Assembly (NCBI GenBank): GCA_035631035.1
Contig: DASQJL010000096.1
Span: 1,234-65,233 of the forward strand
Length of the DNA: 64,000 nt
Source: Candidatus Binatia bacterium
GTDB taxonomy: Bacteria > Eisenbacteria > RBG-16-71-46 > SZUA-252
Direction: 5' to 3'
Shown here piece by piece: positions 29,927 through 44,168 of the stretch. The translations under genes and the position numbers were made by a program. Numbering within the stretch: the first letter of the stretch is position 1; every line of letters begins with the position of its first letter. The notes beneath the pieces were generated by a model that did not search any database, had not been told where the DNA came from, and was given only the letters and a program-made list of their open reading frames with translations.

Positions 29927-31048
29927 CTATTTCTTCCGCGGCTCCTCCAGCCCCTCGTCCGGCCGCCGGTAGGTTCCGCTCCGGATCTGCCGCACCATCG
30001 CGACCAGCTCCTTCGCGGCGTGCCGCGTCTCCTCCTGGAATGCCGCGTCGCGGTCCAGGTCGTCGTGGCTGGTGGCGTAGGGCTCGTAGTAGCCGACGTA
30101 GCGATCGATTCCCGCGACGGGCCCGGCCGGGATCATCTCGAGATCGGTCATCCAGTCCACGAGAATCCGGCGCAGGTTCTCCGCGCCGGCCGCGTCCGCG
30201 TGCACGACCACCGAGAACGCGCGCCCGGCCAGATGCTTCGGGTAGGGCCACCCGGCCAGCTCGATCGCTTTCGCCCTGGCGGCATCCTTCCCGCGGGTCG
30301 TCGTCGGATCGGGATTCCCTCCGTCGGCGCAGACCAGGCGATCGATCATCAGCTTGAGCACGCTGGGCGACTGGTACCAGTTCACCGGCGTCACGATCAT
30401 CACGCCGTGCGCGGCGATCCACATCGGGTAGATGTCCGCCATCCAGTCGTTCACCTGGCCCAGCGCGTGGTTCGGGTAGCAGGAGCACGGCCAGTGGCAG
30501 AGCGGCTGCGCCGTCGAGACGCATGCCTTGCAGGGATAGATCACCAGATGCGCCTCGGCGGTGAGGCGGCTCAGATCCAGGAAGTCCACCTCCACGCCCG
30601 GCTCGCCGGCGATCGCCTCGCGCGCGATCTTCGTCAGGCGATAGGTCTTCGAGATCTCGCCGGGGCAGGTCTGGTCGGTGCGCGCCGAGGCGTTGATGAC
30701 GAGGATGCGCGAAGCGCCGGCGGGGTCGTCGTGCCGTTTCTGAGCCTCGAGGACGCGGCGCCGCGCATCGAGCCACTCCACGGGAAGGGGAAAGCTCGGG
30801 TCGGCGAACTCCGGGCCGGCCGGCTTCGTGCGCGGGCTCTTGCGATACTCGTGGTAGGCCTGCCACGCCACGTCGATGACGCGCTCCAGCTCGCCCGGGA
30901 TCTTCTCGAACGCGGGGTCGTAGGCGCGCGCCAGGATGCGCGCCCGGAAGGTCTCGCGATCCAGGTCGAACTTCTGGTCGCCCTTCACGACCCTTGGCTC
31001 CGGAGCGTCTCCGGCGCCGGCCGCCCTGCCGCTTTCGTCGCCCGTCAT
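29927..31048 (-). CDS. Flavodoxin-like NAD(P)H-dependent FMN reductase / iron-sulfur flavoprotein family
   Basis: ILVINASART nucleotide-binding start. Cys cluster YPCKACVSTAQPLCHWPCSC. Confidence 0.7.
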   Translation of the reverse strand: MTGDESGRAAGAGDAPEPRVVKGDQKFDLDRETFRARILARAYDPAFEKIPGELERVIDVAWQAYHEYRKSPRTKPAGPEFADPSFPLPVEWLDARRRVLEAQKRHDDPAGASRILVINASARTDQTCPGEISKTYRLTKIAREAIAGEPGVEVDFLDLSRLTAEAHLVIYPCKACVSTAQPLCHWPCSCYPNHALGQVNDWMADIYPMWIAAHGVMIVTPVNWYQSPSVLKLMIDRLVCADGGNPDPTTTRGKDAARAKAIELAGWPYPKHLAGRAFSVVVHADAAGAENLRRILVDWMTDLEMIPAGPVAGIDRYVGYYEPYATSHDDLDRDAAFQEETRHAAKELVAMVRQIRSGTYRRPDEGLEEPRKK

Positions 31049-31052
31049 GGGG

Positions 31053-32573
31053 TCAGCTCTCCAGGGGTCTCGGGAAGGTCGTTGCGGCCGGAATGAGCTC
31101 CGCGTCGGGTCCCGGGTCGCGGCGGAGCAGCGTCGCGATCGCGATGCCGAACGAGAGCGCCTGGCCGACCAGCCCCACCATGAGGTCGGCTCGATCCGGC
31201 AGCGGGGGCGCCCCCACGATCAACGCCCACGCCAGCGCGAAGGCGATCACCAGCGGAACGCGGCCGCGAATGCCTCCCGCCAGGTACGTCAGCAGCCAGA
31301 GCGCCGTGACGGTGACGTAGGAGGAGGGGGCGAACGGCGCCCGCAACGAGGCGATCGTCAGGAGCGCGAGCCAGGTGCGCGCCTCGCCCACACGGCTCCG
31401 GAATCCGCGAGCGGCCCTCTGATTGAGCGCGAGGATCGCCAGGGTGAAGAGCCAGACCAACGCGAGGCCCACCCCCCGGCTCATCCCCGGCAGGCCGAGA
31501 AGGGCCAGCTTCGGGACCACGCTCGCGATCGAGAAGTTCCGCGACAGGAAGAAGACAGGCACGCCGGGCCGGTTCACGAAGGAGAACGCCTCGCCGGTGA
31601 CGATGCGCGGCACCTGGAACGTGAAGAAGTCCAGGAGCGGCTTCCACCCCACGACCGGGATCGAGAGGAGCGTGAACCCGGCGAGGAAGGCGACGCTCCA
31701 CCCGGCCGCCGGCCACTGGCGGCGCAGCGCCAGGTAGAGAAGGAACATCGCCGGAAAGACTTTCCCGAGGATCGCGAACGCGAGCAGGGCTCCGCCCAGT
31801 GCCGCGCGCCGCTCCTCGAACGCGATCATCGCCACCACGGTGAGGCCGACCGCCATCATGTGGAACTGCCCGAACTGGAGATCGAACATCGTCGGGATCG
31901 AGGCGAAGAGCAGGGGCAAAAGCAGCCCCGCCGTCAGCCCGTAGCGTCCGCCGACCCACGCGGCGAGGAGGAGAACGGCCGCCATCAGCGACACGGTCTG
32001 GAGCGCGAACCACGCGGCGCGAATCGCGTCGAAGGAGTTCGTGGCCGCGAGCGCCGCGCGCGGCAGCAGCAGGAAGGGCGACGGGTACTCGTACGGGTCC
32101 TCGATCCAGCGGCTCAGCCCCGCGACCGGAGAGGGAAATCCCGGCGCGCTGTCGACCGGCGCCGTGAAGGCGGGATACCAGCGCGGGTCGTAGATGTTCT
32201 CCTCGCCCCGGCGCGCGAGATCGGCGGCGTGCACGTAGGCGGACAGGCACTGGTGGTTCGAGACGAGCGGGTCGGGAATCGTGGAGCCCCAGAGCCTCGA
32301 GGAGTCGGCCATGAAGGCGGAGAGGCGGCCCATCTGCGCGATCGCCACGAGCGCGAGGAGAAGCCAGGCCGCGGCCACGAGCGGGCGCCGCCGGATGGCT
32401 CCGCGCAGCGATCCCGGAAGACGGCGGGCGCCCCACGGGAGGGCGGCGAAGCAGGCGATCAGGGCCGCGACGGCCAGCGGGACCGATGCCCGTGCCGCGA
32501 TCGGGACGATCACGGCGGCCGCGAGCGCGGAACCGAAGAAGGCGACGGTCCACTGCTCGAGGCTGGGGCGCAT
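31053..32573 (-). CDS. Integral membrane glycosyltransferase family 87 / DUF2029 protein
   Basis: About 12 TM helices. Start MRPSLEQW... overlaps the NUDIX stop by 1 nt. Alpha-mannosyltransferase-like pattern. Confidence 0.7.
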   Translation of the reverse strand: MRPSLEQWTVAFFGSALAAAVIVPIAARASVPLAVAALIACFAALPWGARRLPGSLRGAIRRRPLVAAAWLLLALVAIAQMGRLSAFMADSSRLWGSTIPDPLVSNHQCLSAYVHAADLARRGEENIYDPRWYPAFTAPVDSAPGFPSPVAGLSRWIEDPYEYPSPFLLLPRAALAATNSFDAIRAAWFALQTVSLMAAVLLLAAWVGGRYGLTAGLLLPLLFASIPTMFDLQFGQFHMMAVGLTVVAMIAFEERRAALGGALLAFAILGKVFPAMFLLYLALRRQWPAAGWSVAFLAGFTLLSIPVVGWKPLLDFFTFQVPRIVTGEAFSFVNRPGVPVFFLSRNFSIASVVPKLALLGLPGMSRGVGLALVWLFTLAILALNQRAARGFRSRVGEARTWLALLTIASLRAPFAPSSYVTVTALWLLTYLAGGIRGRVPLVIAFALAWALIVGAPPLPDRADLMVGLVGQALSFGIAIATLLRRDPGPDAELIPAATTFPRPLES

Positions 32574-33061
32574 CAGAATCCGGTCTCGATCGGCTCCGAC
32601 GGCAACCCTCCTTCGATCAGGTCCGCGACCAGCGATCCCAGCCGCATCGGGGCGAATTCCTTCGATTCGGCCGGGAGCTCCGCGAGGGGCCACCAGCGGA
32701 GCTCGGCCATCGCCTCCCGCTCGGACGGCACCGGATTGCGCGAGGTGTCGGGCTCGAACCGATCGGCGCGGACCAGGTAGAAGTGCTCGCGCTCATTCAC
32801 CCACTGGCCGGCCCAGCGGTAGCGGCCGTGACGGACCCAGACCTGGGCGCCGATGTCGAGATCGCCTCGTCCCAGCTCTTCCTCCAGCTCCCGGCGCAGC
32901 GCTTCGCGGTGCGTCTCGCCGGGGGCGATGCCCCCTCCCGGCGTGATCCAGAGCCTCCGGTCCGGAACGACGAGGTGGATCAGGAGCAGCGCGGGATCGG
33001 GCGTCAGGATCAGCGCGCGCACGCACTCACGCAAGCGAAACGTCGGAGCGAACGCGGTCAT
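32573..33061 (-). CDS. NUDIX hydrolase
   Basis: Nudix box GGGIAPGETHREALRRELEEELG. Confidence 0.8.
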   Translation of the reverse strand: MTAFAPTFRLRECVRALILTPDPALLLIHLVVPDRRLWITPGGGIAPGETHREALRRELEEELGRGDLDIGAQVWVRHGRYRWAGQWVNEREHFYLVRADRFEPDTSRNPVPSEREAMAELRWWPLAELPAESKEFAPMRLGSLVADLIEGGLPSEPIETGF

Positions 33062-33071
33062 GCGATGGCGT

Positions 33072-33860
33072 TCAGGGCCGCTTGCGGGCTTTCCAGACTT
33101 CCTCCGACGGCCACTGTCGCGCCCATTCCGCCGTGACGAAGGGATGGCGCGTGGTCGCGCCTTCCGGCGGGCGCACCTCGACGAGGTCCTCCACTTCGAA
33201 TCCGGCACCGCGCAGGATCCGGAACCATTCGCCGTGGCTCTTGTGGAACTCGACGCCCGAATCGCCGGGCCAGGCGATCCGCCCCATCCCGAACGCGGGG
33301 CGAAGAAGTCGCTCGCCGGCCGCCTCGGTTTCATCCTCCGGCATGCAGAGCATCAGGAGGAACGCGTTGGTCAGGAAGTGGAGCCGCCCGCCGGGTCGGA
33401 GGAGTCGCGCGGCCTCCGGCACCCATTGCTCCGGATCGGCCCAGAGACACGCCCCGTATTCGGAGATCGCGAAGTCGAACGATGCGTCCGGATAGGGGAC
33501 CGACTCCGCGTTGCCATGGACCAGCGGAAATTCGAGGCCGTGCTCGCGCTGAAGCCGGCGCGCGGTTTCGAGCTGCGTCTCGGAATTGTCGATGCCGACG
33601 ACGCGGGCGCCGCGGCGCGCGAGCCAGGAGGAAACGTACGCCGTGCCGCATCCCAGCTCGATCGCGTCGCGGCCCGAGAGGTCGTCCGGAAGCATTCCGA
33701 TCTCTCGCTCGGGAATGTTCCAGATGCCCCAGGTCGGCTCGCGCGCCGCCCAGTGGCGCTCGCCCGAGGCGACGTAATCGCTCGCTTTCTGGTCCCAGTA
33801 CGTCCGGTTGTGGAGGACGTGCTCCGGAAGCTCCGTCACACGCTTCCCGGTTACATCCAC
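33072..33860 (-). CDS. Class I SAM-dependent methyltransferase
   Basis: Motif I IELGCGTAY. Post-I acidic residue. Confidence 0.75.
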   Translation of the reverse strand: MDVTGKRVTELPEHVLHNRTYWDQKASDYVASGERHWAAREPTWGIWNIPEREIGMLPDDLSGRDAIELGCGTAYVSSWLARRGARVVGIDNSETQLETARRLQREHGLEFPLVHGNAESVPYPDASFDFAISEYGACLWADPEQWVPEAARLLRPGGRLHFLTNAFLLMLCMPEDETEAAGERLLRPAFGMGRIAWPGDSGVEFHKSHGEWFRILRGAGFEVEDLVEVRPPEGATTRHPFVTAEWARQWPSEEVWKARKRP

Positions 33861-34363
33861 GGCTCGTCCGCGGTCGGTCCATAGATCGAGGGCACCTTGC
33901 CTCCCGCCATGCGGAGGTAGATGGAGAACTGCCCTCGATGGTGGATCTGATCGTGGAGCAGGAACCAGCAGACGTTCATGCGCGGGATGTCGCCCATCTG
34001 TTTCGGGCCGACGAAGAAGCGGACCGTCTCTTGAAGTTTCTCCTCCGGCATCGACCGGATCAGGTTGCCGAACTCGCGATGGGCGTCCTCGACGGCCTCG
34101 ATCAGCTCGAACCAGGAGCTGGGCGCGGGCGGAGGGTTGCCCGAGGGGGCGCTGCTCGCAAACGCGTCGTTCATGAGCATCACGCCCAGGCCGCGTTCCA
34201 GCTTGAAGACCCAGGCCAGCTCGCGCGCGGTCTTCGACATGGCGTGGGGCCGGAGATCCAGCTTGTCCTCGGGGTAGGCGTGGAGGATACGCATGGTGCG
34301 CTGGTGCTCGTCTTCGTAGACGGCCAGGAACTGCTCTTTATGGGAATGGGTGATGGTCGCCAT
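33851..34363 (-). CDS. DinB family (damage-inducible, four-helix-bundle metal-binding) protein
   Basis: HDQIHHRGQ signature. Confidence 0.8.
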   Translation of the reverse strand: MATITHSHKEQFLAVYEDEHQRTMRILHAYPEDKLDLRPHAMSKTARELAWVFKLERGLGVMLMNDAFASSAPSGNPPPAPSSWFELIEAVEDAHREFGNLIRSMPEEKLQETVRFFVGPKQMGDIPRMNVCWFLLHDQIHHRGQFSIYLRMAGGKVPSIYGPTADEPWM

Positions 34364-34476
34364 GGGGCAGGCTCCTAACGCCGCGCCCGGGGCGCGGACG
34401 GGAAGAGACTAGTTCGCGATCGATCGGAGCCGGGGGCTGCTCCCGGGTCGGAATCGGATCGTAACTCGATTGTCGC

Positions 34477-35061
34477 CTATGGGCGGGGCGGCTTGGAAGC
34501 GGGATAGAGGGTGCCCACCTGGCGCTCCCGATGGGCCGCGAACAGCGTTCGTTCGACCGCTCGCGCCGTGACGTCGAGCTCCGCCGCCACGCCCCGAAGC
34601 ACGTGGAGGAACTGGAACCACTGATCGAGGGTGAGCCCGGCGCCCCGGGCATTGCCCCGCACGGCGCCCATCGCGTGCAGCAGCTGCCACACGCGAATGT
34701 CGATCACGCCGTAGCGCCCGGGCTCGAGCATAGTGAGCACCGCGGAGGCCGAGGGGGCGGAGACGCCCCTCAGCGAGAGCAGGCGCTCGAAGCGCTCCCG
34801 CTCCTCCACGCTCCGGATCGCCGCTTCCGTGGCGGTGCGGACGCGGCGCGCGCCGTTTTCGCGGACGAGTCCCGTGGATCGCGGGGATTTCCAGCGGCAG
34901 ATCCGGATCAGCTCCCCCCTCGTGAGGTAGCCGCGGACGTTCGCGGGACGCACCGCTTCGATCAGGGAGGAAGTCGCCGGGTCCTCGACGGCGATCATCC
35001 GCTCCCGCACGAGCGCGATCAGGGAAGGTTCGGGGCGCGAGCCTGCGATCACGCCCCGCAT
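34477..35061 (-). CDS. Hypothetical protein with a helix-hairpin-helix-like motif
   Basis: LLSLRGVSAPSASAVL resembles the HhH LxxLxGVGxxTA motif. Its start is 6 nt after the DUF3037 stop. Confidence 0.5.
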   Translation of the reverse strand: MRGVIAGSRPEPSLIALVRERMIAVEDPATSSLIEAVRPANVRGYLTRGELIRICRWKSPRSTGLVRENGARRVRTATEAAIRSVEERERFERLLSLRGVSAPSASAVLTMLEPGRYGVIDIRVWQLLHAMGAVRGNARGAGLTLDQWFQFLHVLRGVAAELDVTARAVERTLFAAHRERQVGTLYPASKPPRP

Positions 35062-35067
35062 CCGCGG

Positions 35068-35466
35068 TCAGCTTCGCCGCGGCGTCCGGACCATCGTCTC
35101 GAGCAGGTGCTCGAGGAGTGCGGCCGGGTCCGTGCAGGCGCCGGTGTGGACGGCCGAGGTCTGGATGACCGTGCTGCGCGGCGCGGTGAGCCAGCGGAAG
35201 CGCTCCCGCTTCGAGAGGGCCCCGATCGGTCCCGCGGAGGGGCCGCCCGCGCAGATCGCGGGGAGGGTCGCCAAGTGGGCGCGGATCGTCGCAAGGTCGG
35301 CGCCGGGGTCCAGCGCGAGCAGCCGGCCCTCGTCCAGCTCGATGCGGGCCTCCAGGAAGTCGCTCGCCGGGCAGGAGACGATCGCTCCGGCATTGATGAA
35401 CTCCTCCCGCTCCACCTTCGGGACCACGCGGACGATGGCGTAATCGTACGGGCTAGGCTCGGGCAC
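35068..35466 (-). CDS. DUF3037 domain protein
   Basis: N-terminal YDYAIVRVVPKVEREEFINAGAIV matches the DUF3037 signature (Y.Y.V.R.VP...R.EF.N.G.I). It overlaps the kinase-like gene by 14 nt. Confidence 0.7.
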   Translation of the reverse strand: MPEPSPYDYAIVRVVPKVEREEFINAGAIVSCPASDFLEARIELDEGRLLALDPGADLATIRAHLATLPAICAGGPSAGPIGALSKRERFRWLTAPRSTVIQTSAVHTGACTDPAALLEHLLETMVRTPRRS

Positions 35467-36217
35467 GGATCGCCTCTTCCAGGAAGGGCCGCGGCGTCTC
35501 CAGGCGGCGCGCCAGATACTTCACGTAGGCATCGCGATGCTCGGCGGCCGTCGCGAAGGGTGCGTCGACCAGCCAGGTGTCGGGGACCAGCGAGACGATG
35601 CGCCGCAGCTCGTCCGGAGTGACCCGCTTGTCCAGCGCGGCATCGGCTTCCTCCATCCGGGAGGCCGCGGGAAGGAGCACGTGGTCGCGAATCATCGGGA
35701 AGGGATCGCGGCTCCGCTCCAGCCAGTGCTCCCACGTGTGGTGGAAGTAGAGCGCCGATCCGTGGTCGATGAGCCACGTGCGCCGGTGCCACACGAGCAG
35801 GTTGGTATTGCGTGGCGTCCGGTCGATGTTCGTGACGAAGGCGTCGAACCAGACCACCAGGGATGCGAACCCCGGATCCGGCTTCTCCGCCACGGGATCG
35901 AACATGATCGAGCCCGGCAGGTAGTCGAGCGCCAGGTTCAGCCCGCCGCTCGCGCGGATCAGGTCCTGGATCTCCGGGTCGGGTTCCGTGCGCGCGAGGT
36001 CGGGGTCCAGCTCCACGAACACGATCTCCGGAACGGGAAGCCCGGCGGCGCGCGCGATCTCGCCGCACACGAGCTCCGCGATCAGCGCCTTGGCGCCATG
36101 TCCCGCGCCGCGGAACTTGAGCACGTACATGCCGTCGTCGTCGGCTTCGACGATCGCGGGCAGCGAGCCTCCCTCGCGGAGCGGGGTCACGTAGCGCGTG
36201 GCCGCGACCGTGCGCAT
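35453..36217 (-). CDS. HipA-like / PI3-4-kinase-like putative Ser/Thr kinase
   Basis: Gly-rich loop region. Catalytic-loop-like NIDRTPRNTN (DRxxxN). IDHGSA (DFG-like). Fixed pairing with DUF3037. Confidence 0.6.
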   Translation of the reverse strand: MRTVAATRYVTPLREGGSLPAIVEADDDGMYVLKFRGAGHGAKALIAELVCGEIARAAGLPVPEIVFVELDPDLARTEPDPEIQDLIRASGGLNLALDYLPGSIMFDPVAEKPDPGFASLVVWFDAFVTNIDRTPRNTNLLVWHRRTWLIDHGSALYFHHTWEHWLERSRDPFPMIRDHVLLPAASRMEEADAALDKRVTPDELRRIVSLVPDTWLVDAPFATAAEHRDAYVKYLARRLETPRPFLEEAIRARA

Positions 36218-36234
36218 CTAGAGGGCGCGCCGCG

Positions 36235-36666
36235 TCATCGGCCCAGGAACCTGTCGATCTGCCGGCGGTGCCGCAGCACGTGCACGATCGCGTGCTCGAA
36301 GAGCTGCTCGAAGTCATAGATCGGTCCCCAGCGAACGGTCATCTTCATCTCGGTGCATTCCTGGTCCGTCATCTCCCAGTGGCCCTCGAGGGTCTCGGCC
36401 ATGTAGGCGAGCGTCTTCCGCATCTCGGCCGGCGTATCGGCGCGGCGGACCGGTTCGTCCCACCGGACCACGGGCTCCTTCTTCCAGTGCGTCCGCATGT
36501 AGTTCGCGTAGCCGTACCCGGCTCGGACCACGTGCCTCATGATGGTCTGGATCGAGCGGCAATCCTCGTCCTGGGTCGTGGTGTCGCGGACCCGATCGAA
36601 CTCCTCATCCGAGATCCCCTCCAGAATCCGGATCAGCTCCGCCGAGGCGCGCTCGTACTCGTCCAT
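36235..36666 (-). CDS. DinB/YfiT-like (DinB_2 family) protein
   Basis: His triad candidates (IMRHVV, EGHWEM, HAIVHVLRHRRQ). The start could instead be the upstream GTG near 36705. Confidence 0.6.
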   Translation of the reverse strand: MDEYERASAELIRILEGISDEEFDRVRDTTTQDEDCRSIQTIMRHVVRAGYGYANYMRTHWKKEPVVRWDEPVRRADTPAEMRKTLAYMAETLEGHWEMTDQECTEMKMTVRWGPIYDFEQLFEHAIVHVLRHRRQIDRFLGR

Positions 36667-36901
36667 CAACGCGCCGACGGGTCCCTTCCTGTAGGTCTTG
36701 GCCACGGCTCCTCCGCAAGGTGGTGTGTGGGCGGCGATTCTGGCCCAGGAACCGGCCGGAAGCCAAGGGCTGCTTCCAGCCATGGCCCTTCCCGGCGGTG
36801 AAGAATTCTCTGAGCGCGCCGATACCTTGGTAGCGCGCCGGGGGCCGGGGCTCCGCGTGGCGCGCCCTCGCCGCGACCCACCCTGCAACCGGAGCGAAAC
36901 C

Positions 36902-38173
36902 GTGGGCAAGAAGCACCGCTCGTTCAGGATATCGCTGCCCCCCGCCGTGGGCCGGATCGCGAAGGGGGCCCTCAAGAGCAAGCTCCTCATGGTGCTCGTG
37001 GGACTCTTCGTGCTCGGGTTCATCGCGGGAAAGCAGTCCGAGCCCGATCCCACCGGCGCGCCGTTCGAGGAGTTGTTCGAGAACCTGAGCGTCGTATCCT
37101 ACCGCGACTCTCCCTCGGACTCGGCCTCGCACTTCATGGTCGAGCTGTCCGCGCGCGGCAAGGTCTTCCGCGAGTACGACGTGGACGAGCAGCGTTTCGT
37201 GGAGCCCGCCCGCGGCCGCGACTACCGGCGCATGATCGGCGCCACTCGCTATGAGCCGCTCGTCGTGCGCGGCCACGTGGACCGCGGCTTCTGGCTGGAG
37301 CTGTCCAACCAGAAGAGCCCCGAGATCCTGCCCGACCAGTTCCAGGAGATGTACCAGACCACGCTGGACTACGTGAAACCGGTGTCGGTCATCGCCTCGA
37401 TCGCGGGGACGCTCTCCGGCTATTCCGTCGGATACCGCGCCGGCACGTGGGGCACCTCGCTCGCCAATCCCGCCGTGCAGAAGCGGGTGCTGTCGACCGC
37501 GGGCGTCGGGCGGATGATCACGCGCGAGGCCTGGCGCCGCGTGCTCCTGGAGCCCGTGGTGATGGGGCACGAGAGCGACCCCGAGCGGTTCGCCGCGGCG
37601 CGCGAGACCCAGCGGATCTACACGAACTTCTTCCGGCTCGCGCTGGCCGACAGCAACGACTTCATCCATGACGAGGCCCGGCGGCTCGACGCCGCGGGCT
37701 ACACGCGCGAGGCGATCGCCATGCTGGAGTTCACCTACTCGGCGCTGCGAGCGGCCGACGACACCGTGCACCTCGAGAGCGCCGATTTCCGGGCCGTCGA
37801 GGAATGGGCCAGCCTGATCGCGCACCGCGGCCACTGGGCGCCCACGTCGATCCCCGCATCGGGCGAGGCGCGCGTGCGCTACCTGGGGACCCTGGCCTAC
37901 TACGGCCTGACGCCGGTCGCCGACGACGCGCATCGGGTCTGGGTCGGGCCGCGCGTGCTGGTGAAGGATGGCGAGGAGGAGGGGTTCGTGGCGGACGAGA
38001 TCCCCTCGATCCGCGCCGCGTGTCCCTTGACGTGGCAGGACTGGCTGCGCCACGACACCACCGGGATGAGCAGCAACGAGTGGACGGCGCAGTGGATGAG
38101 GGAATCGAAGCAGCTCGCGCAGATGGTGAGTTTCGGAAAGCAGGTCGTGCGGCAGATGCAGCCCGCGCGGTAG
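36902..38173 (+). CDS. Membrane-anchored hypothetical protein (423 aa)
   Basis: GTG start after GGAG. A single N-terminal TM (LLMVLVGLFVLGFIAG) followed by a soluble domain with no recognisable motif. Confidence 0.55.
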   Translation: MGKKHRSFRISLPPAVGRIAKGALKSKLLMVLVGLFVLGFIAGKQSEPDPTGAPFEELFENLSVVSYRDSPSDSASHFMVELSARGKVFREYDVDEQRFVEPARGRDYRRMIGATRYEPLVVRGHVDRGFWLELSNQKSPEILPDQFQEMYQTTLDYVKPVSVIASIAGTLSGYSVGYRAGTWGTSLANPAVQKRVLSTAGVGRMITREAWRRVLLEPVVMGHESDPERFAAARETQRIYTNFFRLALADSNDFIHDEARRLDAAGYTREAIAMLEFTYSALRAADDTVHLESADFRAVEEWASLIAHRGHWAPTSIPASGEARVRYLGTLAYYGLTPVADDAHRVWVGPRVLVKDGEEEGFVADEIPSIRAACPLTWQDWLRHDTTGMSSNEWTAQWMRESKQLAQMVSFGKQVVRQMQPAR

Positions 38174-38184
38174 GGCCCCGTCCG

Positions 38185-38568
38185 CTACGCGTCGCCCGTG
38201 GGAATGATCCCACGTCGCTCCACCATCAAGATCACGGTGCGCTCCGGGGCGCGCGTCCGGTGCACCACGCCCCTGGGCACCACGAATCCCTGCTGCGGCG
38301 ACAGCTCCACCGTGCGGCTCTCCAGGTCGATCAGCAGCCGGCCCTCCACCACGAAGAAGAACTCGTCCTCCTCGTCATGCTTGTGCCAGTGGTATTCCCC
38401 TCGGATCACGCCGAGTCGCACGACCGAATCGTTCACCTGGCAGAGGGTCTGGTTGTACCAGGGATGGGTGCAGGCGGCGGCGAGCGCGGAAACGTCGATC
38501 AGCTCCAAGGGCTCATAGCGCACGTCCATGTGCGTGTCGTAAGGGTAGTTCTTGGGGTCGTCGGCCAT
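38185..38568 (-). CDS. Cupin-domain protein
   Basis: Start MADDPKNYPYDTHMDV with a GGAG SD. Cupin motifs (HWHKHDEEDEFFFVVEGR ... GVVHR). Divergent from lexA and shares the LexA-box region. Confidence 0.75.
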   Translation of the reverse strand: MADDPKNYPYDTHMDVRYEPLELIDVSALAAACTHPWYNQTLCQVNDSVVRLGVIRGEYHWHKHDEEDEFFFVVEGRLLIDLESRTVELSPQQGFVVPRGVVHRTRAPERTVILMVERRGIIPTGDA

Positions 38569-38629
38569 GCTCCACTCCTCGGGAAAAGGACAAGAACGGC
38601 TGAGGATACTCCTCGGCTGAGCCGCCCCC

Positions 38630-38658
38630 TTGACAACTGCACAAACGTTCACTATCTT
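38630..38658 (+). promoter_or_regulatory. lexA promoter (TTGACA-17-TATCTT) with an embedded LexA box TGCACAAACGTTCA (38638-38651)
   Basis: The operator sits between the -35 and -10 elements. It is near-identical to the dinB cassette. It matches the Fibrobacter-type consensus TGCNCN4GTGCA with one half-site variant (GTTCA). Confidence 0.6.
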
Positions 38659-38669
38659 CCTTTTCAGCC

Positions 38670-39428
38670 ATGAAGAAGAAGCCCAACCCCAGCGGGGCCC
38701 GGGGAAAGCGGCCCCCCACGCGCACGCCCTCTCCCGAGGCGATCCTCTCCTACATCGAGGAGTCGCTTCGCGATACGGGCCGCCCGCCCACGATTCGGGA
38801 AATCGGAGCCGTCTTCGGGATCGCCTCCACCAATGGAGTCCGCTACCACCTCGATAAGCTGGAGCGGGAAGGCAGGATCCGGCGGGATCGATTCACCAGT
38901 CGAGGCATCGAAGTACAGTTGGCCGGCGGGCGCGGCGCGACGCATATGGACACCTTGCCCTCCATGTCGCCCGCGTTTCGCCGAGCCAACGTTCCTCGAG
39001 GGACTGTGGCTGGCGTCCCCGGTGGCCTTGAACGGGATCTCCTTGAAGTCCCCCTCCTGGGCCACGTCGCCGCCGGCGCGCCCCTCCTCGCCGAAGAGCA
39101 CATCGAGGACACCCTGACCCTCGACCCGGCGATGGTGCGGCCCGGCGGCAAGCACTTCGCCCTGCGGGTGCGCGGCGACAGCATGAAGAACGCCGGGATC
39201 CTGGACGGCGACGTGGTCATCGTCCGGCACGACACTCCCGTGAAGAGCGGCGAGATCGCCGTCGTGCTGATCGGCGACGAAGCCACCGTGAAGCGCTTCT
39301 TTCCGCGGCGCGACAAGCTCCTGCTATTTCCTGAAAACGAAGACTACGAACCGATCGAAGTGCGTCCGGCCGATCCCGACGTGCGGGTGGCGGGCAAGGT
39401 GGTGGGTGTATTTCGGAGGCTCGGCTGA
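38670..39428 (+). CDS. lexA: LexA repressor (HTH + S24 autopeptidase) with a Lys/Arg/Pro-rich N-terminal extension
   Basis: PTIREIGAVFGIASTNGVRYHL HTH. Cleavage-site region VAAG. Catalytic S (VRGDSMKNAGILDGD) and K (ATVKRF). Confidence 0.9.
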   Translation: MKKKPNPSGARGKRPPTRTPSPEAILSYIEESLRDTGRPPTIREIGAVFGIASTNGVRYHLDKLEREGRIRRDRFTSRGIEVQLAGGRGATHMDTLPSMSPAFRRANVPRGTVAGVPGGLERDLLEVPLLGHVAAGAPLLAEEHIEDTLTLDPAMVRPGGKHFALRVRGDSMKNAGILDGDVVIVRHDTPVKSGEIAVVLIGDEATVKRFFPRRDKLLLFPENEDYEPIEVRPADPDVRVAGKVVGVFRRLG

Positions 39429-39724
39429 TGCTCCATGCGCGATCGTTTCCATCCGAGAGAGACGGCTACTTCATGATCGAGTCCATCCACGACCCCATCG
39501 AGGTCATCACCATGTTCTCCGGCGGAACGATGAAGCCGATCCGCTTCCGCTGGAAGAACAAGACCGTGCGCATCGCCAAGGTGACGGGGGACTGGGTCCG
39601 GCACGAGGGGGAGAACAAGGTCCACTACTTCGCGCTTCTCGCCGACAACGCGGACTACTACGAGATCCGCTACGACGCGCGCGAGATGACCTGGCAGCTC
39701 ACGCGGGTGTGGATGGAGGGGTAG
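39428..39724 (+). CDS. Small protein (98 aa) translationally coupled to lexA (stop/start overlap TGATG)
   Basis: GGAGG SD 8 nt upstream of the ATG that overlaps the lexA stop. The sequence KPIRFRWKNKTVRIAKVTGDWVRHEGENKVHYFALLADNADYYEIRYDAREMTWQL is beta-rich and has no known motif. Confidence 0.5.
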   Translation: MLHARSFPSERDGYFMIESIHDPIEVITMFSGGTMKPIRFRWKNKTVRIAKVTGDWVRHEGENKVHYFALLADNADYYEIRYDAREMTWQLTRVWMEG

Positions 39725-40193
39725 CCCCGCTCCACGTCCACGAGCCGAGCAGGCGCTCACGCCGGCGCCCGGGCCAGCGGCGGAACTCCTCGGACGGAAC
39801 GAACCCGAGCAGGCTGTCGCAGTCCTGGCGCCGGATGAAGCGGACCCACCCCGACAGCGGTTCCCGAACGAGAACGACACGGCCGGCGAAGATCTCCTCC
39901 AGCGCTCCGATGACGGCGCCGAGGATGGCTCCATCGGACGCCGCGCCCCAGACCAGGATCTTCTCGGCGGGACCGGGAGGGACGCCGTCGTCGTAGGCGA
40001 TCGTCGCCCCCTCCTCGTAGAGGTCGGCGCGAAGCTCATGTCCGGGGCGGCCCGGCACCGGCAGACGGACCGACATGTGGACCGTCATGGAATCCACGCT
40101 CGGGTCCAGCTCCGGATGAAGGGCCCGTAGACGCGCGGCCAGGAGCGTCGCGACCCGGCGGGTCTGCTCGGTCAGGGTGAGCGCGTGCTTCAA
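39699..40193 (-). CDS. Hypothetical protein (about 165 aa)
   Basis: TTG start overlapping the HAD stop (TTGA). It converges on the small lexA-linked ORF with a 26-nt overlap. The gene boundary is uncertain. Confidence 0.4.
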   Translation of the reverse strand: MKHALTLTEQTRRVATLLAARLRALHPELDPSVDSMTVHMSVRLPVPGRPGHELRADLYEEGATIAYDDGVPPGPAEKILVWGAASDGAILGAVIGALEEIFAGRVVLVREPLSGWVRFIRRQDCDSLLGFVPSEEFRRWPGRRRERLLGSWTWSGATPPSTPA

Positions 40194-40939
40194 GGGATCG
40201 CGCCCTCGTCGACATGCCCCGGGGCATGTCGCAGCTCGGACAGGCTGCGCACGATGCGATCGGGGCGTACGTCGCTGCCCGATGGGATCCCCGCGCCTCC
40301 TCGGTCGATCCAGATGGCGTAGATCCCGAGGCGCTGCGGGGCGGCGACGTCCCATTCGAGATTGTCCCCGGCCATCCAGGTCTCGTGCGGCGCGGCCTGC
40401 AGCTCGTCCAGCGCGATCCGGTACACGCGCGGATCGGGCTTGCCGTAACCCAGCTCCCCCTCGATCAGAACCAAATCGAAGAGCTCGGCCAGCTGAAAGC
40501 GCACCACCTTGCTCCTCTGGGCAGCCGCGGCGCCGTTCGTGAGGAGGGCCAGCCTGCGGCCGCTCTGCTTGAACCAGCGCACGGTCTCGATCGCATCCTC
40601 CAGCGGCTGGAGGCCCAGGTGCCGCTGGGCGCGATAGTGCTCCGCGATCTTCTCGGCCAGCTCCGGCGACTCGAGCCCGATCTCCACGAGCGAAGCGCGT
40701 ACGACCTCCCGCCGCGCGGCATCCAGGTCCAGGCGCCCCTCCCGATGGCGCTCGGGATCGGACCAGAACCACGCGCGCGTTTTCTCGATGACGGCGTGGA
40801 GCGCGGAGGGATCGACCGCGCCCAGCTCGTCGCGGTGGGCGCGGCAGGCCTCCAACCAGCAGTGGGAGACGTTGCCGCTGTCGTCGAGGATCGTGTCGTC
40901 GAGATCGAGGAGGACGGCCTTGGGAAGGGCTCCGGTCAC
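40190..40939 (-). CDS. HAD-superfamily hydrolase
   Basis: Motif I LLDLDDTILD. Motifs II and III (LLTNG, GDNLEWD). Confidence 0.8.
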   Translation of the reverse strand: MTGALPKAVLLDLDDTILDDSGNVSHCWLEACRAHRDELGAVDPSALHAVIEKTRAWFWSDPERHREGRLDLDAARREVVRASLVEIGLESPELAEKIAEHYRAQRHLGLQPLEDAIETVRWFKQSGRRLALLTNGAAAAQRSKVVRFQLAELFDLVLIEGELGYGKPDPRVYRIALDELQAAPHETWMAGDNLEWDVAAPQRLGIYAIWIDRGGAGIPSGSDVRPDRIVRSLSELRHAPGHVDEGAIP

Positions 40940-40949
40940 GGGCGCCGTC

Positions 40950-41750
40950 TCAAGCCCTGCTCCCGCGCACGGCCCACGCGCGCGCGATCAGGTGGATCGA
41001 GCCGTCCGCCTCGACCGGCAGCCGCGAGCGGATTCGGTCCCGCAGCGCGCCCCGGCGCGCCTCTTCCAGCGACATGGCGTAGCCCGGCGCGGGGCCCTGG
41101 CCGCCGAGGAAGGGGGACCAGTAGTCGTCGAAATCGCGAAACACGGTCGGGACGTCGATCGCACGCGTCCGGACGTCGCTCAGGTGCCCTCCGGAAAATA
41201 CATCGGCGAGCGCCTCGGGGTGGCAGAGCGGGAATCGGGTCCCTTCGTCCAGCTCGCGGGCCGCGGGATCGAGGGCGATGGCGGCGTCCCAGAAATGCCG
41301 GAGCAGCTCCATGCGCCCCGAGTAGTCCCAGACATAGGCCGCGGCGACGCCTCCGGGGCGGAGCGCGCGAGACATCTCGCCCACGGCGAGTGCCGGCTCC
41401 GGAACGAAGTTGAGGAGCAGGGCGGAAACCGCTGCGTCCACCGAGGCGTCCTCGACCGGAAGCGATCGGGCGTCGCCCACCTCGAACGTCGCGACCGTGC
41501 GCTCCCCGATGCGCGCACGGGCGTAGTCGACGTACGCGGGGGAGGCGTCGATGCTCCGCACCGACCGGGGGCTGGAGCGATCGAGAAGGGTCTGGGTCAA
41601 GGCACCGGTGCCGCACCCGACGTCGAGCCAGGCCCTGCCCGGCGGCACGTCGAGCCACGCGAGGAATTCGGGGGCCACGCGACGGCTCCATCGGCCGACG
41701 AAGGGCTCGTAGAGGTCGCCCGCGGCCCAGACGTCTTCGGGGGTCATCAC
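40950..41750 (-). CDS. Class I SAM-dependent methyltransferase
   Basis: Motif I LDVGCGTGALT. Divergent from dinB. Confidence 0.8.
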   Translation of the reverse strand: MMTPEDVWAAGDLYEPFVGRWSRRVAPEFLAWLDVPPGRAWLDVGCGTGALTQTLLDRSSPRSVRSIDASPAYVDYARARIGERTVATFEVGDARSLPVEDASVDAAVSALLLNFVPEPALAVGEMSRALRPGGVAAAYVWDYSGRMELLRHFWDAAIALDPAARELDEGTRFPLCHPEALADVFSGGHLSDVRTRAIDVPTVFRDFDDYWSPFLGGQGPAPGYAMSLEEARRGALRDRIRSRLPVEADGSIHLIARAWAVRGSRA

Positions 41751-41781
41751 GACAGTTTACTTGCCCCTTGCGGGCGCCATC

Positions 41782-41810
41782 TTGACAACTGCACAAATGT
41801 GCAATATCGT
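41782..41810 (+). promoter_or_regulatory. dinB operon promoter (TTGACA-17-TATCGT) with a perfect palindromic LexA box TGCACAAATGTGCA (41790-41803)
   Basis: Same cassette architecture as at lexA. It matches TGCNCN4GTGCA exactly. Confidence 0.65.
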
Positions 41811-41882
41811 AGTCGTGTGACCTGCTTGAGGCGCCTCGCCAGTCCTCGATCGTGGAACGCAGAGCCCTGGGAGTGACCTTCC

Positions 41883-43154
41883 GTGCGGATCGTGGCGCAC
41901 ATCGACATGGATGCCTTTTTCGCCTCGGTCGAGGAGAAGCTGAACCCGCGGCTCGCGGGAAAGCCGCTGGTCGTGGGAGGGTCCAGGGACAGCCGCGGGG
42001 TCGTCTCGGCGGCCAACTACGCGGCGCGTCCGTACGGGATCCACGCCGGCATGCCGATTGCCGAGGCGGTGCGCCTCTGTCCTGAAGCGGCCTTCATCGA
42101 AGGCGACCCCAGGAAGTACGTTCACATCTCTCTCCAGATCCTCGACACGCTGAAAGACTTCACCCCCATCGTCGAGCCGTTCAGCATCGACGAGGCGTTC
42201 CTCGACCTGACCGCGGTGGAGCGTCTTCGTCCTCGAACGGAAGACGGCGACCACGAGACCTGCCTGAACGCGGCGATCCCGCTCGCCCAGGCGATCCAGC
42301 GCGCGGTGCATCGGCGCGTGGGGCTGACGGCCTCGATCGGGATCGCCCCCAACAAGTACGTCGCCAAGATGGGGAGCGGCCTCCGGAAGCCGAACGGGCT
42401 CACGGTGCTCTCGATCCGCCGCTTTCGCGAGATCTTCGAATCGAAGCCGGTCAACGAGCTGTGGGGGATCGGAGAGAAGACGGCGGCTTCGCTCGCCACA
42501 CTCGGCATCCGCACGGCGGGGCAGCTCGCCCGCTTTCCCCGGGAGTTCCTGACCTATCATTTCGGGCTGAGCGGCGATCACATGCAGGATGCCGCGCGGG
42601 GCGACGACGAATCCGAGGTGGTGCCCTACTTCGAAGGGGTGCCGGTCAAGTCGATGGGGCACGAGTACACGCTGCCGGAGGACGTGTCGGATCGCGAGCG
42701 CATCCGCGCGCACCTCCTCCGCCTGAGCGATCAGGTGGGCCGACGCCTTCGCGTCGACGGATACCTGGGCCGTGTGATCGCGGTGAAGTTCCGCAATGCG
42801 CGCTTCAAGACCACCATCCGCCAGCGCGCGCTGGCCGAGGTGACCGACGACGAGAACGTCATCTATGGCACCGCGTGCATCCTCCTCGACGAGAACTGGG
42901 ACGGAAAGCCGCTGCGCCTGGTCGGCGTCTCGGTGTCGGACCTCGTCTCGGCGCAGGGATTCCATCAGCACGATCTCTTCTCCACCGACGAGCGCCGGCG
43001 AAGAATGACCGAGGCTGCGGATTCGCTGCGGAACAAGTTCGGGGACGCGGTCCTGGTGCGGGCGGGAGCGCTGGATCATGGCGACACGCAGCGCCTCTCT
43101 CGTGAGGGAGCCAGTCGGAGTCTCGTCCGGGTCCTCGCCGACGAGCGACGATGA
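41883..43154 (+). CDS. dinB: DNA polymerase IV (Y-family, DinB)
   Basis: N-terminal IVAHIDMDAFFASVEE and SIDEAFLDLT catalytic motifs. Confidence 0.9.
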   Translation: MRIVAHIDMDAFFASVEEKLNPRLAGKPLVVGGSRDSRGVVSAANYAARPYGIHAGMPIAEAVRLCPEAAFIEGDPRKYVHISLQILDTLKDFTPIVEPFSIDEAFLDLTAVERLRPRTEDGDHETCLNAAIPLAQAIQRAVHRRVGLTASIGIAPNKYVAKMGSGLRKPNGLTVLSIRRFREIFESKPVNELWGIGEKTAASLATLGIRTAGQLARFPREFLTYHFGLSGDHMQDAARGDDESEVVPYFEGVPVKSMGHEYTLPEDVSDRERIRAHLLRLSDQVGRRLRVDGYLGRVIAVKFRNARFKTTIRQRALAEVTDDENVIYGTACILLDENWDGKPLRLVGVSVSDLVSAQGFHQHDLFSTDERRRRMTEAADSLRNKFGDAVLVRAGALDHGDTQRLSREGASRSLVRVLADERR

Positions 43155-44143: not shown

Positions 44144-44168
44144 GCCGGGGCGCGAGCGGAGCGGGGAC

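What the first reader, a model, noticed from the sequence alone, without database searches (positions are those of the whole stretch)
34477..36217. Three-gene coupled module: HipA/PI3K-like kinase, DUF3037 and an HhH-like protein, of unknown function
The kinase-like gene and the DUF3037 gene overlap by 14 nt. The DUF3037 stop is 6 nt from the ATG of a third protein carrying an HhH-like motif (LLSLRGVSAPSASAVL). The HipA-like plus DUF3037 pairing is a recurring but functionally uncharacterised gene pair. Here the kinase retains a DRxxxN catalytic-loop-like motif and IDHG. The module is embedded in an array of stress and damage-type genes (two DinB-family, NUDIX, MTase), which is compatible with a toxin-antitoxin-like or signalling/defence role. 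Uniform high GC argues against recent horizontal acquisition.
Basis: partly seen in the sequence, partly recalled or inferred. Interest (0 to 1): 0.6.

Follow-up and report, generated by a model that had tools for sequence, protein, structure and literature searches.

The report
Kinase-antidote pair beside unrelated repair gene
The "three-gene module" is really a self-contained two-gene cassette, a short-form relative of the recently validated HipAD/DS-6 anti-phage kinase system, sitting next to an independent gene with a DNA-glycosylase fold; it is a moderately interesting variant, not a new kind of system.

Summary
All sequence-level observations hold: three minus-strand ORFs, a 14-nt overlap, a 6-nt gap, the DRTPRN and IDHG motifs, an HhH motif, and DinB/NUDIX/MTase neighbours.

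The kinase (Pfam HipA_2, PADLOC PDC-M66A) and the DUF3037 protein form an obligate pair. The kinase sits directly upstream of DUF3037 in 77 of 80 related metagenome loci; the other 3 are cut by contig ends. The pair is a remote homologue of E. coli DS-6/HipAD, a published kinase-toxin/DUF3037-antidote anti-phage system. Kinase D132 aligns with DS-6A D139, whose mutation abolishes defence. Here the DUF3037 protein is a 132-aa short form without the C-terminal half of DS-6B.

The third gene is not part of that module:
- It occurs without the pair in 60 of 63 evaluable genomes.
- It is absent from 0 of 63 evaluable pair loci.
- Close relatives show the same DinB_2-to-glycosylase backbone with or without the cassette.
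- The single DUF3037-glycosylase fusion is a singleton.

Verdict: a short-form HipAD-like cassette lodged in a DNA-repair neighbourhood. Its toxin-antidote mechanism is inferred, not shown.

The parts
35453..36217 (-). HipA_2-family kinase, 254 aa; the putative toxin or effector of the two-gene cassette
   Evidence: Pfam PF20613 E 5e-19. PADLOC PDC-M66A E 3.7e-22 over nearly full length. PHROG 3162 E 3e-26. hhalign against E. coli DS-6A: probability 98.5%, E 1.7e-15, 194 columns.
35807..35824 (-). Codons of the catalytic loop D132-R-T-P-R-N137
   Evidence: D132 and R133 are invariant and N137 is at least 90% conserved in 30 relatives. D132 aligns with DS-6A D139, where D139A abolishes defence. 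Codons read.
35759..35767 (-). Codons of D151-H152-G153, a DFG-like metal-binding motif within LIDHG
   Evidence: Invariant in 30 relatives. Aligned with LIDHN of DS-6A.
36116..36118 (-). Codon of K34 (YVLK), the presumed ATP-binding lysine
   Evidence: Invariant. Aligned with K42 (YVLK) of DS-6A. The ATP-binding role is inferred from kinase-fold knowledge.
35068..35466 (-). Short-form DUF3037 protein, 132 aa; the putative antidote or partner. It overlaps the kinase gene by 14 nt.
34477..35061 (-). Independent neighbour gene: an Ogg2-like protein of the HhH-GPD (DNA-glycosylase) fold, 194 aa. It is not part of the cassette.
34735..34782 (-). Helix-hairpin-helix motif L94-L109 (LLSLRGVSAPSASAVL) of the third protein
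   Evidence: Aligns with the HhH of SsOgg and E. coli MutY. Helices 87-95 and 102-112 in the model. P103 (at least 90% conserved) sits where one search aligns Q128 of the 3fhg SsOgg chain. From memory, not checked here, this is the position of the Schiff-base Lys of Ogg2 enzymes.
34699..34701 (-). Codon of D121 (YGVIDIRVW), equivalent to the catalytic Asp of HhH-GPD glycosylases
   Evidence: Invariant in 45 family members. Aligned with the Asp of ILDGNV in MutY and of IIDRHI in SsOgg.
36235..37053 (-). DinB_2-family gene. The listed ORF is 272 aa, but homologues are 156 aa, so the true start is probably near 36700. It is the conserved upstream neighbour of the third gene when the cassette is absent.
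   Evidence: Pfam DinB_2 covers residues 133-266. In L001, L167 and L168 the DinB_2 stop is followed 4 nt later by the third-gene start. In the window its stop lies 17 nt before the kinase ATG.
33851..34363 (-). DinB-family gene 113 nt downstream of the third gene; part of the conserved backbone
   Evidence: Pfam DinB E 4e-10. The same gene follows the third gene in L001, L165, L168 and L004.

Best explanation
The region holds two separate things.

(1) Genes 35453-36217 and 35068-35466 form an autonomous, translationally coupled two-gene cassette. It consists of a minimal HipA_2-family Ser/Thr-type kinase and a short DUF3037 protein. It is a remote, short-form homologue of the HipAD / DS-6 / PADLOC PDC-M66 system. 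Most likely mechanism (inferred): the kinase is a growth-arresting effector that uses K34, D132, N137 and D151. The DUF3037 protein binds and neutralises it. When that restraint is lifted by phage infection or another stress, the kinase phosphorylates an essential host or phage target and stops growth or aborts infection. Unlike DS-6B (HipD), the partner here has no C-terminal, predicted DNA-binding half, so any autoregulation or sensing must work differently.

(2) Gene 34477-35061 is an independent, widely distributed enzyme of the HhH-GPD fold, close to Ogg2. It is probably a monofunctional DNA glycosylase, because it keeps the catalytic Asp but lacks the lyase Lys. It belongs to the surrounding DNA-damage neighbourhood (DinB_2, DinB, NUDIX, lexA, Y-family polymerase).

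The cassette lies between DinB_2 and this gene in one Eisenbacteria-like clade and is facultative there.
For: Shown:
- Family membership of the kinase and DUF3037.
- Homology to DS-6A at 98.5% probability, with D132 matching the experimentally essential D139. Homology to the DS-6B N-terminal domain at 89.6%.
- Same gene order with overlapping genes as DS-6, where the overlap is 4 nt, and in all relatives examined, where it is 4-23 nt.
- Catalytic residues invariant.
- The kinase accompanies DUF3037 in 77 of 80 loci, and the remaining 3 are contig ends.
- Flanking genes of the pair are unconserved. Contexts range from argH/gltA in Parabacteroides to a PKS cluster in Streptomyces.
- The cassette is present or absent at one and the same site among close relatives.
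- Third protein: glycosylase fold, conserved Asp, and independence from the pair.
- The only DUF3037-third-gene fusion is a singleton among 5.8 billion clusters.

From the literature:
- DS-6 defends E. coli, and the kinase mutant loses defence (PMC13092281).
- In Retron-Sda1, deleting HipA abolishes defence and deleting DUF3037 is toxic (PMC12548924).
- Phage PhiR5_1 is annotated with a HipA toxin and HipD antitoxin.
Against: - Toxicity, neutralisation and defence were shown only for long-form systems that are 20-27% identical to this one. The short-form partner lacks the DUF1829-like C-terminal half.
- The cassette is not in a defence island or mobile element. No integrase or transposase is nearby, and no relatives were found in IMG/VR.
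- Short-form pairs sit among housekeeping genes in Parabacteroides. They are well conserved, about 70% identity for both proteins across 52 soil loci, which is not typical of fast-evolving defence genes.
- Direct comparison with E. coli HipA was not significant, so 'HipA-like' rests on Pfam's family and on DS-6.
- The kinase structure was not predicted.
- No kinase-DUF3037 complex model could be made.
- Glycosylase activity of the third protein is untested. The fold also includes non-DNA enzymes such as the queuosine salvage DUF2419.
Confidence: 0.6

Rival explanations
1. The short-form HipA_2/DUF3037 pair is not a toxin-antidote or defence system. It is a conserved chromosomal signalling pair: a regulatory kinase with DUF3037 as its obligate activator, substrate or specificity subunit, acting in stress physiology. 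Only the long-form phage- and plasmid-borne versions were recruited for defence.
For: - Both proteins are about 70% identical across 52 diverse soil loci and 45-54% identical between Eisenbacteria-like, Bacteroidota and Actinomycetota.
- In Parabacteroides the pair lies between argH, gltA and groES-like housekeeping genes.
- There is no DNA-binding domain for TA-type autoregulation.
- No relatives were found in IMG/VR viral contigs.
- The subfamily has its own invariant Cys/His pattern (C72, C111, H64, H107), which DS-6B lacks.
Against: - The cassette is dispensable. Syntenic close relatives lack it at exactly the same site.
- Flanking genes are unrelated from locus to locus, which fits a self-contained mobile cassette.
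- It is homologous to a system in which the kinase is toxic and defensive.
- It hits PADLOC and PHROG models built from defence and phage genes.
Confidence: 0.25
2. One reading: in this clade the three genes work together as a tripartite module analogous to HipBST. The HhH protein would act as a DNA-binding regulator or sensor for the kinase-DUF3037 pair.
For: - Spacing is tight: a 6-nt gap here and overlaps of 11 nt and 1 nt in L165 and L003.
- The arrangement is kept in 8 loci whose third proteins are only 54-85% identical to the window's.
- The two ORFs are in the same frame, and one metagenomic protein (P0023) fuses them.
- DS-6B carries a predicted DNA-binding half that the short DUF3037 lacks.
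Against: - 60 of 63 evaluable genomes with the third gene have no pair, even when searched with broad profiles at maximum sensitivity.
- 0 of 63 evaluable pair loci have the third gene.
- Pair-less copies are interleaved with pair-linked ones in the tree.
- L166 has a NUDIX gene between DUF3037 and the third gene.
- The fusion is unique, with the next hit at 253 bits against 701. It needs only the loss of one stop codon.
- The third protein is an enzyme-like, strongly conserved glycosylase fold with a retained catalytic Asp, and shows no similarity to DS-6B.
Confidence: 0.1

Closest known systems
HipAD / DS-6 (E. coli; Brenes & Laub 2025; DefensePredictor, PMC13092281) = PADLOC candidate PDC-M66; also the HipA-like/DUF3037 pair of Retron-Sda1 (PMC12548924)
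   Same: - A kinase of about 250 aa of the same family (hhalign 98.5%, 27% identity), with the same K, D-R-T, N and I-D-H motifs. D132 corresponds to D139.
- A DUF3037 domain encoded immediately downstream by an overlapping gene.
- A self-contained two-gene cassette.
   Different: - The partner is 132 aa, not 275 aa. It lacks the DUF1829-like, predicted DNA-binding C-terminal half.
- Only 20-27% identity.
- Chromosomal, inside a DNA-repair neighbourhood, not in a prophage or defence island.
- No experimental data exist for this short form.
Canonical HipBA and tripartite HipBST toxin-antitoxin systems
   Same: A kinase toxin with PI3/4-kinase-like catalytic motifs, controlled by a small protein encoded in the same operon. 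This is a comparison of how it works, drawn from established knowledge of HipA and HipT.
   Different: - There is no HipB-type HTH gene.
- The gene order is kinase first.
- The kinase is a minimal core without the HipA N-terminal domains.
- No significant profile match to E. coli HipA was found (the HipA sequence was recalled from memory).
- DUF3037 is unrelated to HipB and not demonstrably HipS-like.
Ogg2-family 8-oxoguanine DNA glycosylases (TM1821, MjOgg, SsOgg) and the wider HhH-GPD superfamily; Pfam PF21790 'OGG-like'
   Same: - An HhH motif followed by a loop and an invariant Asp.
   Different: - 13-16% identity.
- Pfam score below the gathering threshold (20.4 bits against 27).
- P103 occupies the position that one search aligns with Q128 of the SsOgg chain. 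From memory, not checked here, this is the Schiff-base Lys position of Ogg2 enzymes. AP-lyase chemistry is therefore unlikely.
- Family-specific invariant motifs (RGYLT, CRWKSPR, YGVIDIRVWQLL) are of unknown role.
- The substrate is unknown.

Membership tests
HipAD / DS-6 / PADLOC PDC-M66 | Kinase homologous to DS-6A / PDC-M66A | tested here: met
   PDC-M66A HMM E 3.7e-22, covering 2-227 of the protein and 11-250 of 270 profile positions. hhalign against DS-6A: probability 98.5%, E 1.7e-15. phmmer with DS-6A hits the orthologous kinases at E 3e-9 to 2e-6.
HipAD / DS-6 / PADLOC PDC-M66 | Catalytic Asp (DS-6A D139, essential for defence) and the accompanying kinase motifs are conserved | tested here: met
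   D132 aligns with D139. K34, D132, R133, N139, D151, H152 and G153 are invariant and N137 is at least 90% conserved in 30 relatives.
HipAD / DS-6 / PADLOC PDC-M66 | DUF3037-domain gene immediately downstream of, and overlapping, the kinase gene | tested here: met
   14-nt overlap. PF11236 E 4e-45. The pairing is present in 77 of 80 related loci.
HipAD / DS-6 / PADLOC PDC-M66 | Partner protein of about 275-281 aa with a C-terminal DUF1829-like, predicted DNA-binding domain | tested here: not met
   The protein is 132 aa. PDC-M66B matches only profile positions 3-66 of 281. hhalign covers DS-6B residues 5-128 only. The downstream third protein shows no similarity to DS-6B.
HipAD / DS-6 / PADLOC PDC-M66 | Kinase toxic, DUF3037 protein neutralising, system protects against phage | not testable with these tools
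   Known only for DS-6 and Retron-Sda1 homologues.
HipAD / DS-6 / PADLOC PDC-M66 | Location on a prophage, plasmid or defence island | tested here: not met
   The neighbours are DinB, NUDIX, a methyltransferase, lexA and a Y-family polymerase. No relatives were found in IMG/VR. Only the distant long-form versions are on phages or Pseudomonas plasmids.
Canonical HipA (HipBA) | Detectable similarity to E. coli HipA, with its N-terminal domains | tested here: inconclusive
   Pfam places the protein in HipA_2. However, hhalign of the family profile against E. coli HipA (sequence recalled from memory) gave 2% probability and only a 23-residue local match. PDB sequence searches found no HipA. The protein is 254 aa against 440 aa for HipA.
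Canonical HipA (HipBA) | HipB-type HTH antitoxin gene upstream | tested here: not met
   The upstream gene is DinB_2 and the downstream partner is DUF3037.
HipBST tripartite system | Small HipS protein resembling the HipA N-terminal subdomain, plus a HipB HTH protein | tested here: not met
   [not shown]
HhH-GPD DNA glycosylase superfamily (Ogg2-like) | Two-lobe helical fold with an HhH motif | tested here: met
   [not shown]
HhH-GPD DNA glycosylase superfamily (Ogg2-like) | Conserved catalytic Asp about 20 residues after the HhH | tested here: met
   D121 is invariant in 45 members. It aligns with the catalytic-loop Asp of MutY and SsOgg.
HhH-GPD DNA glycosylase superfamily (Ogg2-like) | Schiff-base Lys in the HhH (bifunctional glycosylase/lyase, as in the Ogg enzymes) | tested here: not met
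   The position aligned with Q128 of the 3fhg SsOgg chain is P103, which is at least 90% conserved. That this is the Schiff-base Lys position of Ogg2 enzymes is recalled from memory, not checked here.
Pfam PF21790 (OGG-like) | Score at or above the gathering threshold | tested here: not met
   20.4 bits against a threshold of 27, covering the C-terminal 60 residues only. 29 of 45 family members match at E <= 0.01, best 8.5e-6.
HhH-GPD DNA glycosylase superfamily (Ogg2-like) | Base-excision activity on DNA | not testable with these tools
   No biochemical data. The fold also hosts nucleotide-processing enzymes (DUF2419).

The most novel reading that the evidence does not exclude
In this Eisenbacteria-like clade the kinase/DUF3037 cassette has been functionally wired to the adjacent glycosylase-fold protein. 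The HhH-GPD protein would act as a sensor of damaged or phage-modified DNA bases. Via DUF3037 (as in the one observed fusion protein), it would release the kinase to arrest growth. That would be a DNA-lesion- or modified-base-triggered kinase switch with no described precedent.
Probability: 0.06. Interest if true: 0.7.

Novelty: new variant of a known kind. Interest (0 to 1): 0.3.

Why it matters
- It corrects a plausible but wrong operon-based inference: tight spacing and a shared reading frame did not mean a functional trio.
- It links an abundant gene pair to the newly validated HipAD/DS-6 defence family. NCBI annotates this pair only as 'HipA family kinase / DUF3037 domain-containing protein', and it occurs in Acidobacteriota, Gemmatimonadota, Bacteroidota, Actinomycetota and Eisenbacteria.
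- It shows that the common form lacks the C-terminal half of the antidote. If the short form is also a toxin-antidote or defence system, the DUF3037 domain alone is the kinase-neutralising module, and the family is far more widespread than the E. coli examples suggest. If not, it is a conserved, unexplored kinase signalling pair.
- The third gene defines a well-conserved, uncharacterised Ogg2-like glycosylase family that lacks the lyase lysine.

Tried and rejected
- **Third protein as a split-off C-terminal domain of DS-6B/HipD.** Rejected: hhalign probability 0.2%.
- **Recurrent DUF3037-glycosylase fusions as Rosetta-stone evidence.** Rejected: P0023 is the only one.
- **Divergent kinase/DUF3037 genes missed next to other third-gene copies.** Rejected after searching with broad profiles that included DS-6A/B at --max and E <= 1.
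- **A conserved gene next to the pair other than the third gene.** None found; flanks cluster into singletons. Likewise, the third gene has no conserved neighbour outside its own clade.
- **SOS control of the cassette.** A LexA-operator-like element occurs upstream of lexA and of a Y-family polymerase. No copy lies near the DinB_2-kinase operon.
- **Retron or ncRNA association, as in Retron-Sda1.** No Rfam hit in 30000-42500, and no RT gene was seen.
- **Sequence searches of all three proteins against the PDB.** Only noise, or weak glycosylase hits.
- **NCBIfam.** Nothing useful.
- **Promoter and terminator scan.** No internal terminators and only the lexA promoter.
- **Insertion scars.** No repeats or scars were seen at the cassette junctions.
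Full report
**Observation.** Reading the sequence confirms three points. The kinase stop codon lies inside the DUF3037 ORF, giving a 14-nt overlap. Six nucleotides separate the DUF3037 stop from the ATG of the third ORF. The upstream DinB_2 gene ends only 17 nt before the kinase ATG. Pfam assigns the first protein to HipA_2 (PF20613, E 5e-19) and the second to DUF3037 (PF11236, E 4e-45). The neighbours are DinB, a class-I methyltransferase, NUDIX, DinB_2, a cupin and LexA. GC content is flat at 0.67-0.70.

**The kinase and DUF3037 are an obligate, self-contained pair.**
- A scan of metagenome contigs with a DUF3037 alignment returned 80 loci at 64-76% identity. In 77 of them a kinase homologue lies immediately upstream. 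The other three have fewer than 60 nt of upstream sequence.
- The genes flanking the pair are unrelated from locus to locus.
- Short-form pairs at 45-54% identity occur in Parabacteroides between argH and gltA, and in Streptomyces inside a polyketide cluster. NCBI annotates them as 'HipA family kinase' and 'DUF3037 domain-containing protein'.
- The two genes always overlap, by 4 to 23 nt.
- In 30 kinase relatives at 40-66% identity, K34, D132, R133, N139, D151, H152 and G153 are invariant, and N137 is at least 90% conserved.

**The pair is no longer 'uncharacterised'.**
- PADLOC models PDC-M66A and PDC-M66B hit the two proteins at E 3.7e-22 and 8e-7.
- In Retron-Sda1, deleting the HipA-like kinase abolishes phage defence, and deleting DUF3037 is toxic (PMC12548924).
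- DefensePredictor validated the E. coli system DS-6, renamed HipAD after Brenes & Laub 2025. It showed that a kinase catalytic mutant loses defence (PMC13092281).
- I took the DS-6 sequences from that paper's supplement. The window's kinase family aligns with DS-6A at 98.5% hhalign probability (E 1.7e-15, 27% identity over 194 columns). D132 falls on D139, the mutated residue.
- The DUF3037 family aligns with residues 5-128 of DS-6B at 89.6% probability.
- The lambdoid phage PhiR5_1 carries the long form next to cI, annotated as HipA toxin and HipD antitoxin.

**The third gene is a separate entity.**
- Its family is large, with 751 hits, and strongly conserved. Invariant motifs include W57-K58-S59, G99, A105-S106-A107 and Y117-G-V-x-D121-I-R-V-W125.
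- The AF2 model is confident (pLDDT 92.4).
The invariant D121 aligns with their catalytic Asp.
- P103, which is conserved, sits where one search aligns Q128 of the SsOgg chain. From memory, not checked here, this is the Schiff-base Lys position of Ogg2 enzymes. The likeliest activity is therefore a monofunctional N-glycosylase. This is an inference.
- Pfam PF21790 (OGG-like) is hit below threshold by the window protein, and at E <= 0.01 by 29 of 45 family members.

**Linkage tests in both directions.**
- A genome scan found the third gene in 80 species. These span Acidobacteriota, Gemmatimonadota, Bacteroidota, Ignavibacteria, Chloroflexota, Verrucomicrobia, Gammaproteobacteria, CPR bacteria and DPANN archaea. 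Only three of them, the closest relatives, have the kinase/DUF3037 pair next to it. That is 3 of 63 loci with at least 1.3 kb of upstream sequence. Broad profiles that included DS-6A/B, run at maximum sensitivity, changed nothing.
- Conversely, none of the 80 pair-containing metagenome loci carries the third gene. Of these, 63 have at least 600 nt of downstream sequence.
- In a neighbour-joining tree, all pair-linked copies fall in one clade. There they are interleaved with pair-less copies.
- That clade shares a backbone of lexA, DUF6504, cupin, a 423-aa unknown protein, DinB_2, the third gene and DinB. In L001, L167 and L168 the DinB_2 stop is followed 4 nt later by the third-gene start. In the window, L165, L003, L005, L006 and L008 the cassette sits between them. 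In L166 a NUDIX gene separates DUF3037 from the third gene.
- One metagenomic protein (P0023) fuses DUF3037 to the third protein. In the window the two ORFs are in the same frame, so losing one stop codon would produce such a fusion. A search with the fusion as query found no second example. The next hit scores 253 bits against 701.
- The third protein has no similarity to DS-6B.
- The three-gene module reading is therefore not supported. The adjacency is lineage-restricted and facultative.

**Context.** The surrounding region is a DNA-damage neighbourhood, not a defence island.
- A promoter-like element contains a TGCAC-N4-GT(T/G)CA palindrome. It occurs exactly twice in the 64-kb window: upstream of lexA (38630-38655) and upstream of a Y-family polymerase (41782-41807). 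The polymerase is followed by a DUF72 gene and an MrfA-like helicase.
- The same element precedes lexA in L001, L165 and L167, where the lexA coordinates were checked against it. It also occurs in L006, L007, L009 and L018.
- No copy lies near the DinB_2-kinase operon, so SOS control of the cassette is not indicated.
- No Rfam family matches in 30000-42500, no terminator-like sites were found, and no DUF3037 relatives were found in IMG/VR.
- The closest homologues, at 96% identity for DUF3037, are labelled Candidatus Eisenbacteria. The window probably derives from such a soil bacterium.

**Mechanism and rivals.** The best-supported reading has confidence of about 0.6. Identity and architecture are shown; mechanism is inferred. 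The reading is a short-form HipAD-like kinase/antidote cassette next to an independent Ogg2-like glycosylase gene.
- The main rival (about 0.25) is that the short form is a conserved non-toxic signalling pair. It is favoured by the pair's conservation, about 70% identity for both proteins across 52 loci. It is also favoured by the housekeeping contexts and the missing DNA-binding half. It is disfavoured by the cassette's presence/absence polymorphism and its variable contexts.
- The tripartite reading retains about 0.1.

**Novelty and score.** This is a new variant of a known kind. It lacks a defining feature of the validated systems, the long partner protein, and so should not simply be filed as HipAD. 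It most likely works like HipAD. Interest is 0.3. It gives a useful correction and a pointer to an abundant, untested short form of a newly discovered defence family, but it contains nothing categorically new.

Noticed in passing
window 38630-38655 and 41782-41807 (+): A 26-nt promoter-like element (TTGACA, 17-nt spacer, TATCTT or TATxxx) contains the palindrome TGCAC-N4-GT(T/G)CA. It occurs exactly twice in the 64 kb: directly upstream of lexA and upstream of a Y-family (IMS) DNA polymerase gene (41883-43154). The same element precedes lexA in L001, L165 and L167 and is also present in L006, L007, L009 and L018. It is a likely LexA operator for this lineage, and from memory it resembles the Fibrobacter-type box.
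   Followed up: partly
window 41883-46676 (+): Downstream of the second LexA-box-like site lie a Y-family polymerase (IMS, IMS_C), a DUF72 protein (43151-44143) and an MrfA-like helicase (DEAD, WHD_HRQ1, MZB; 44169-46676). Together they look like a putative SOS-controlled repair operon.
   Followed up: partly
window ~36902-38173 (+); L001 4059-5330, L165 899-2170, L166 3530-4798: A protein of about 423 aa with no Pfam hit is conserved next to the DinB_2 / third-gene backbone in all close relatives, divergently transcribed from DinB_2. Its function is unknown.
   Followed up: no
window 39428-39724 (+): A DUF6504 gene abuts the end of lexA (the lexA ORF ends at 39428). The same lexA-DUF6504 pair is seen in L001 and L167.
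   Followed up: no
[not shown]
   Followed up: partly
L004 382-1338 (protein P0023): This is a single metagenomic ORF that fuses DUF3037 in frame to the glycosylase-fold protein through the linker ...TMVRTSDRTSTAVGVRVLPY.... It is unique among 5.8 billion protein clusters, so it is probably a stop-codon loss or an assembly error.
   Followed up: yes
L003 2426-2977, L166 776-1327, L167 4573-5097, L001 3469-3996: In relatives, a Macro-domain gene and sometimes a NUDIX or His_Phos_1 gene sit variably in the same DinB_2 / glycosylase cluster. This suggests a flexible ADP-ribose and damage-processing gene neighbourhood.
   Followed up: no
L005 (DATJEJ010000195.1) and L001/L007 (JBLMWD010000093.1): The contigs with the closest matches are labelled 'Candidatus Omnitrophota' and 'Bacteroidota' but share synteny and high identity with Eisenbacteria MAGs. 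The taxonomic labels of these bins may be unreliable.
   Followed up: no
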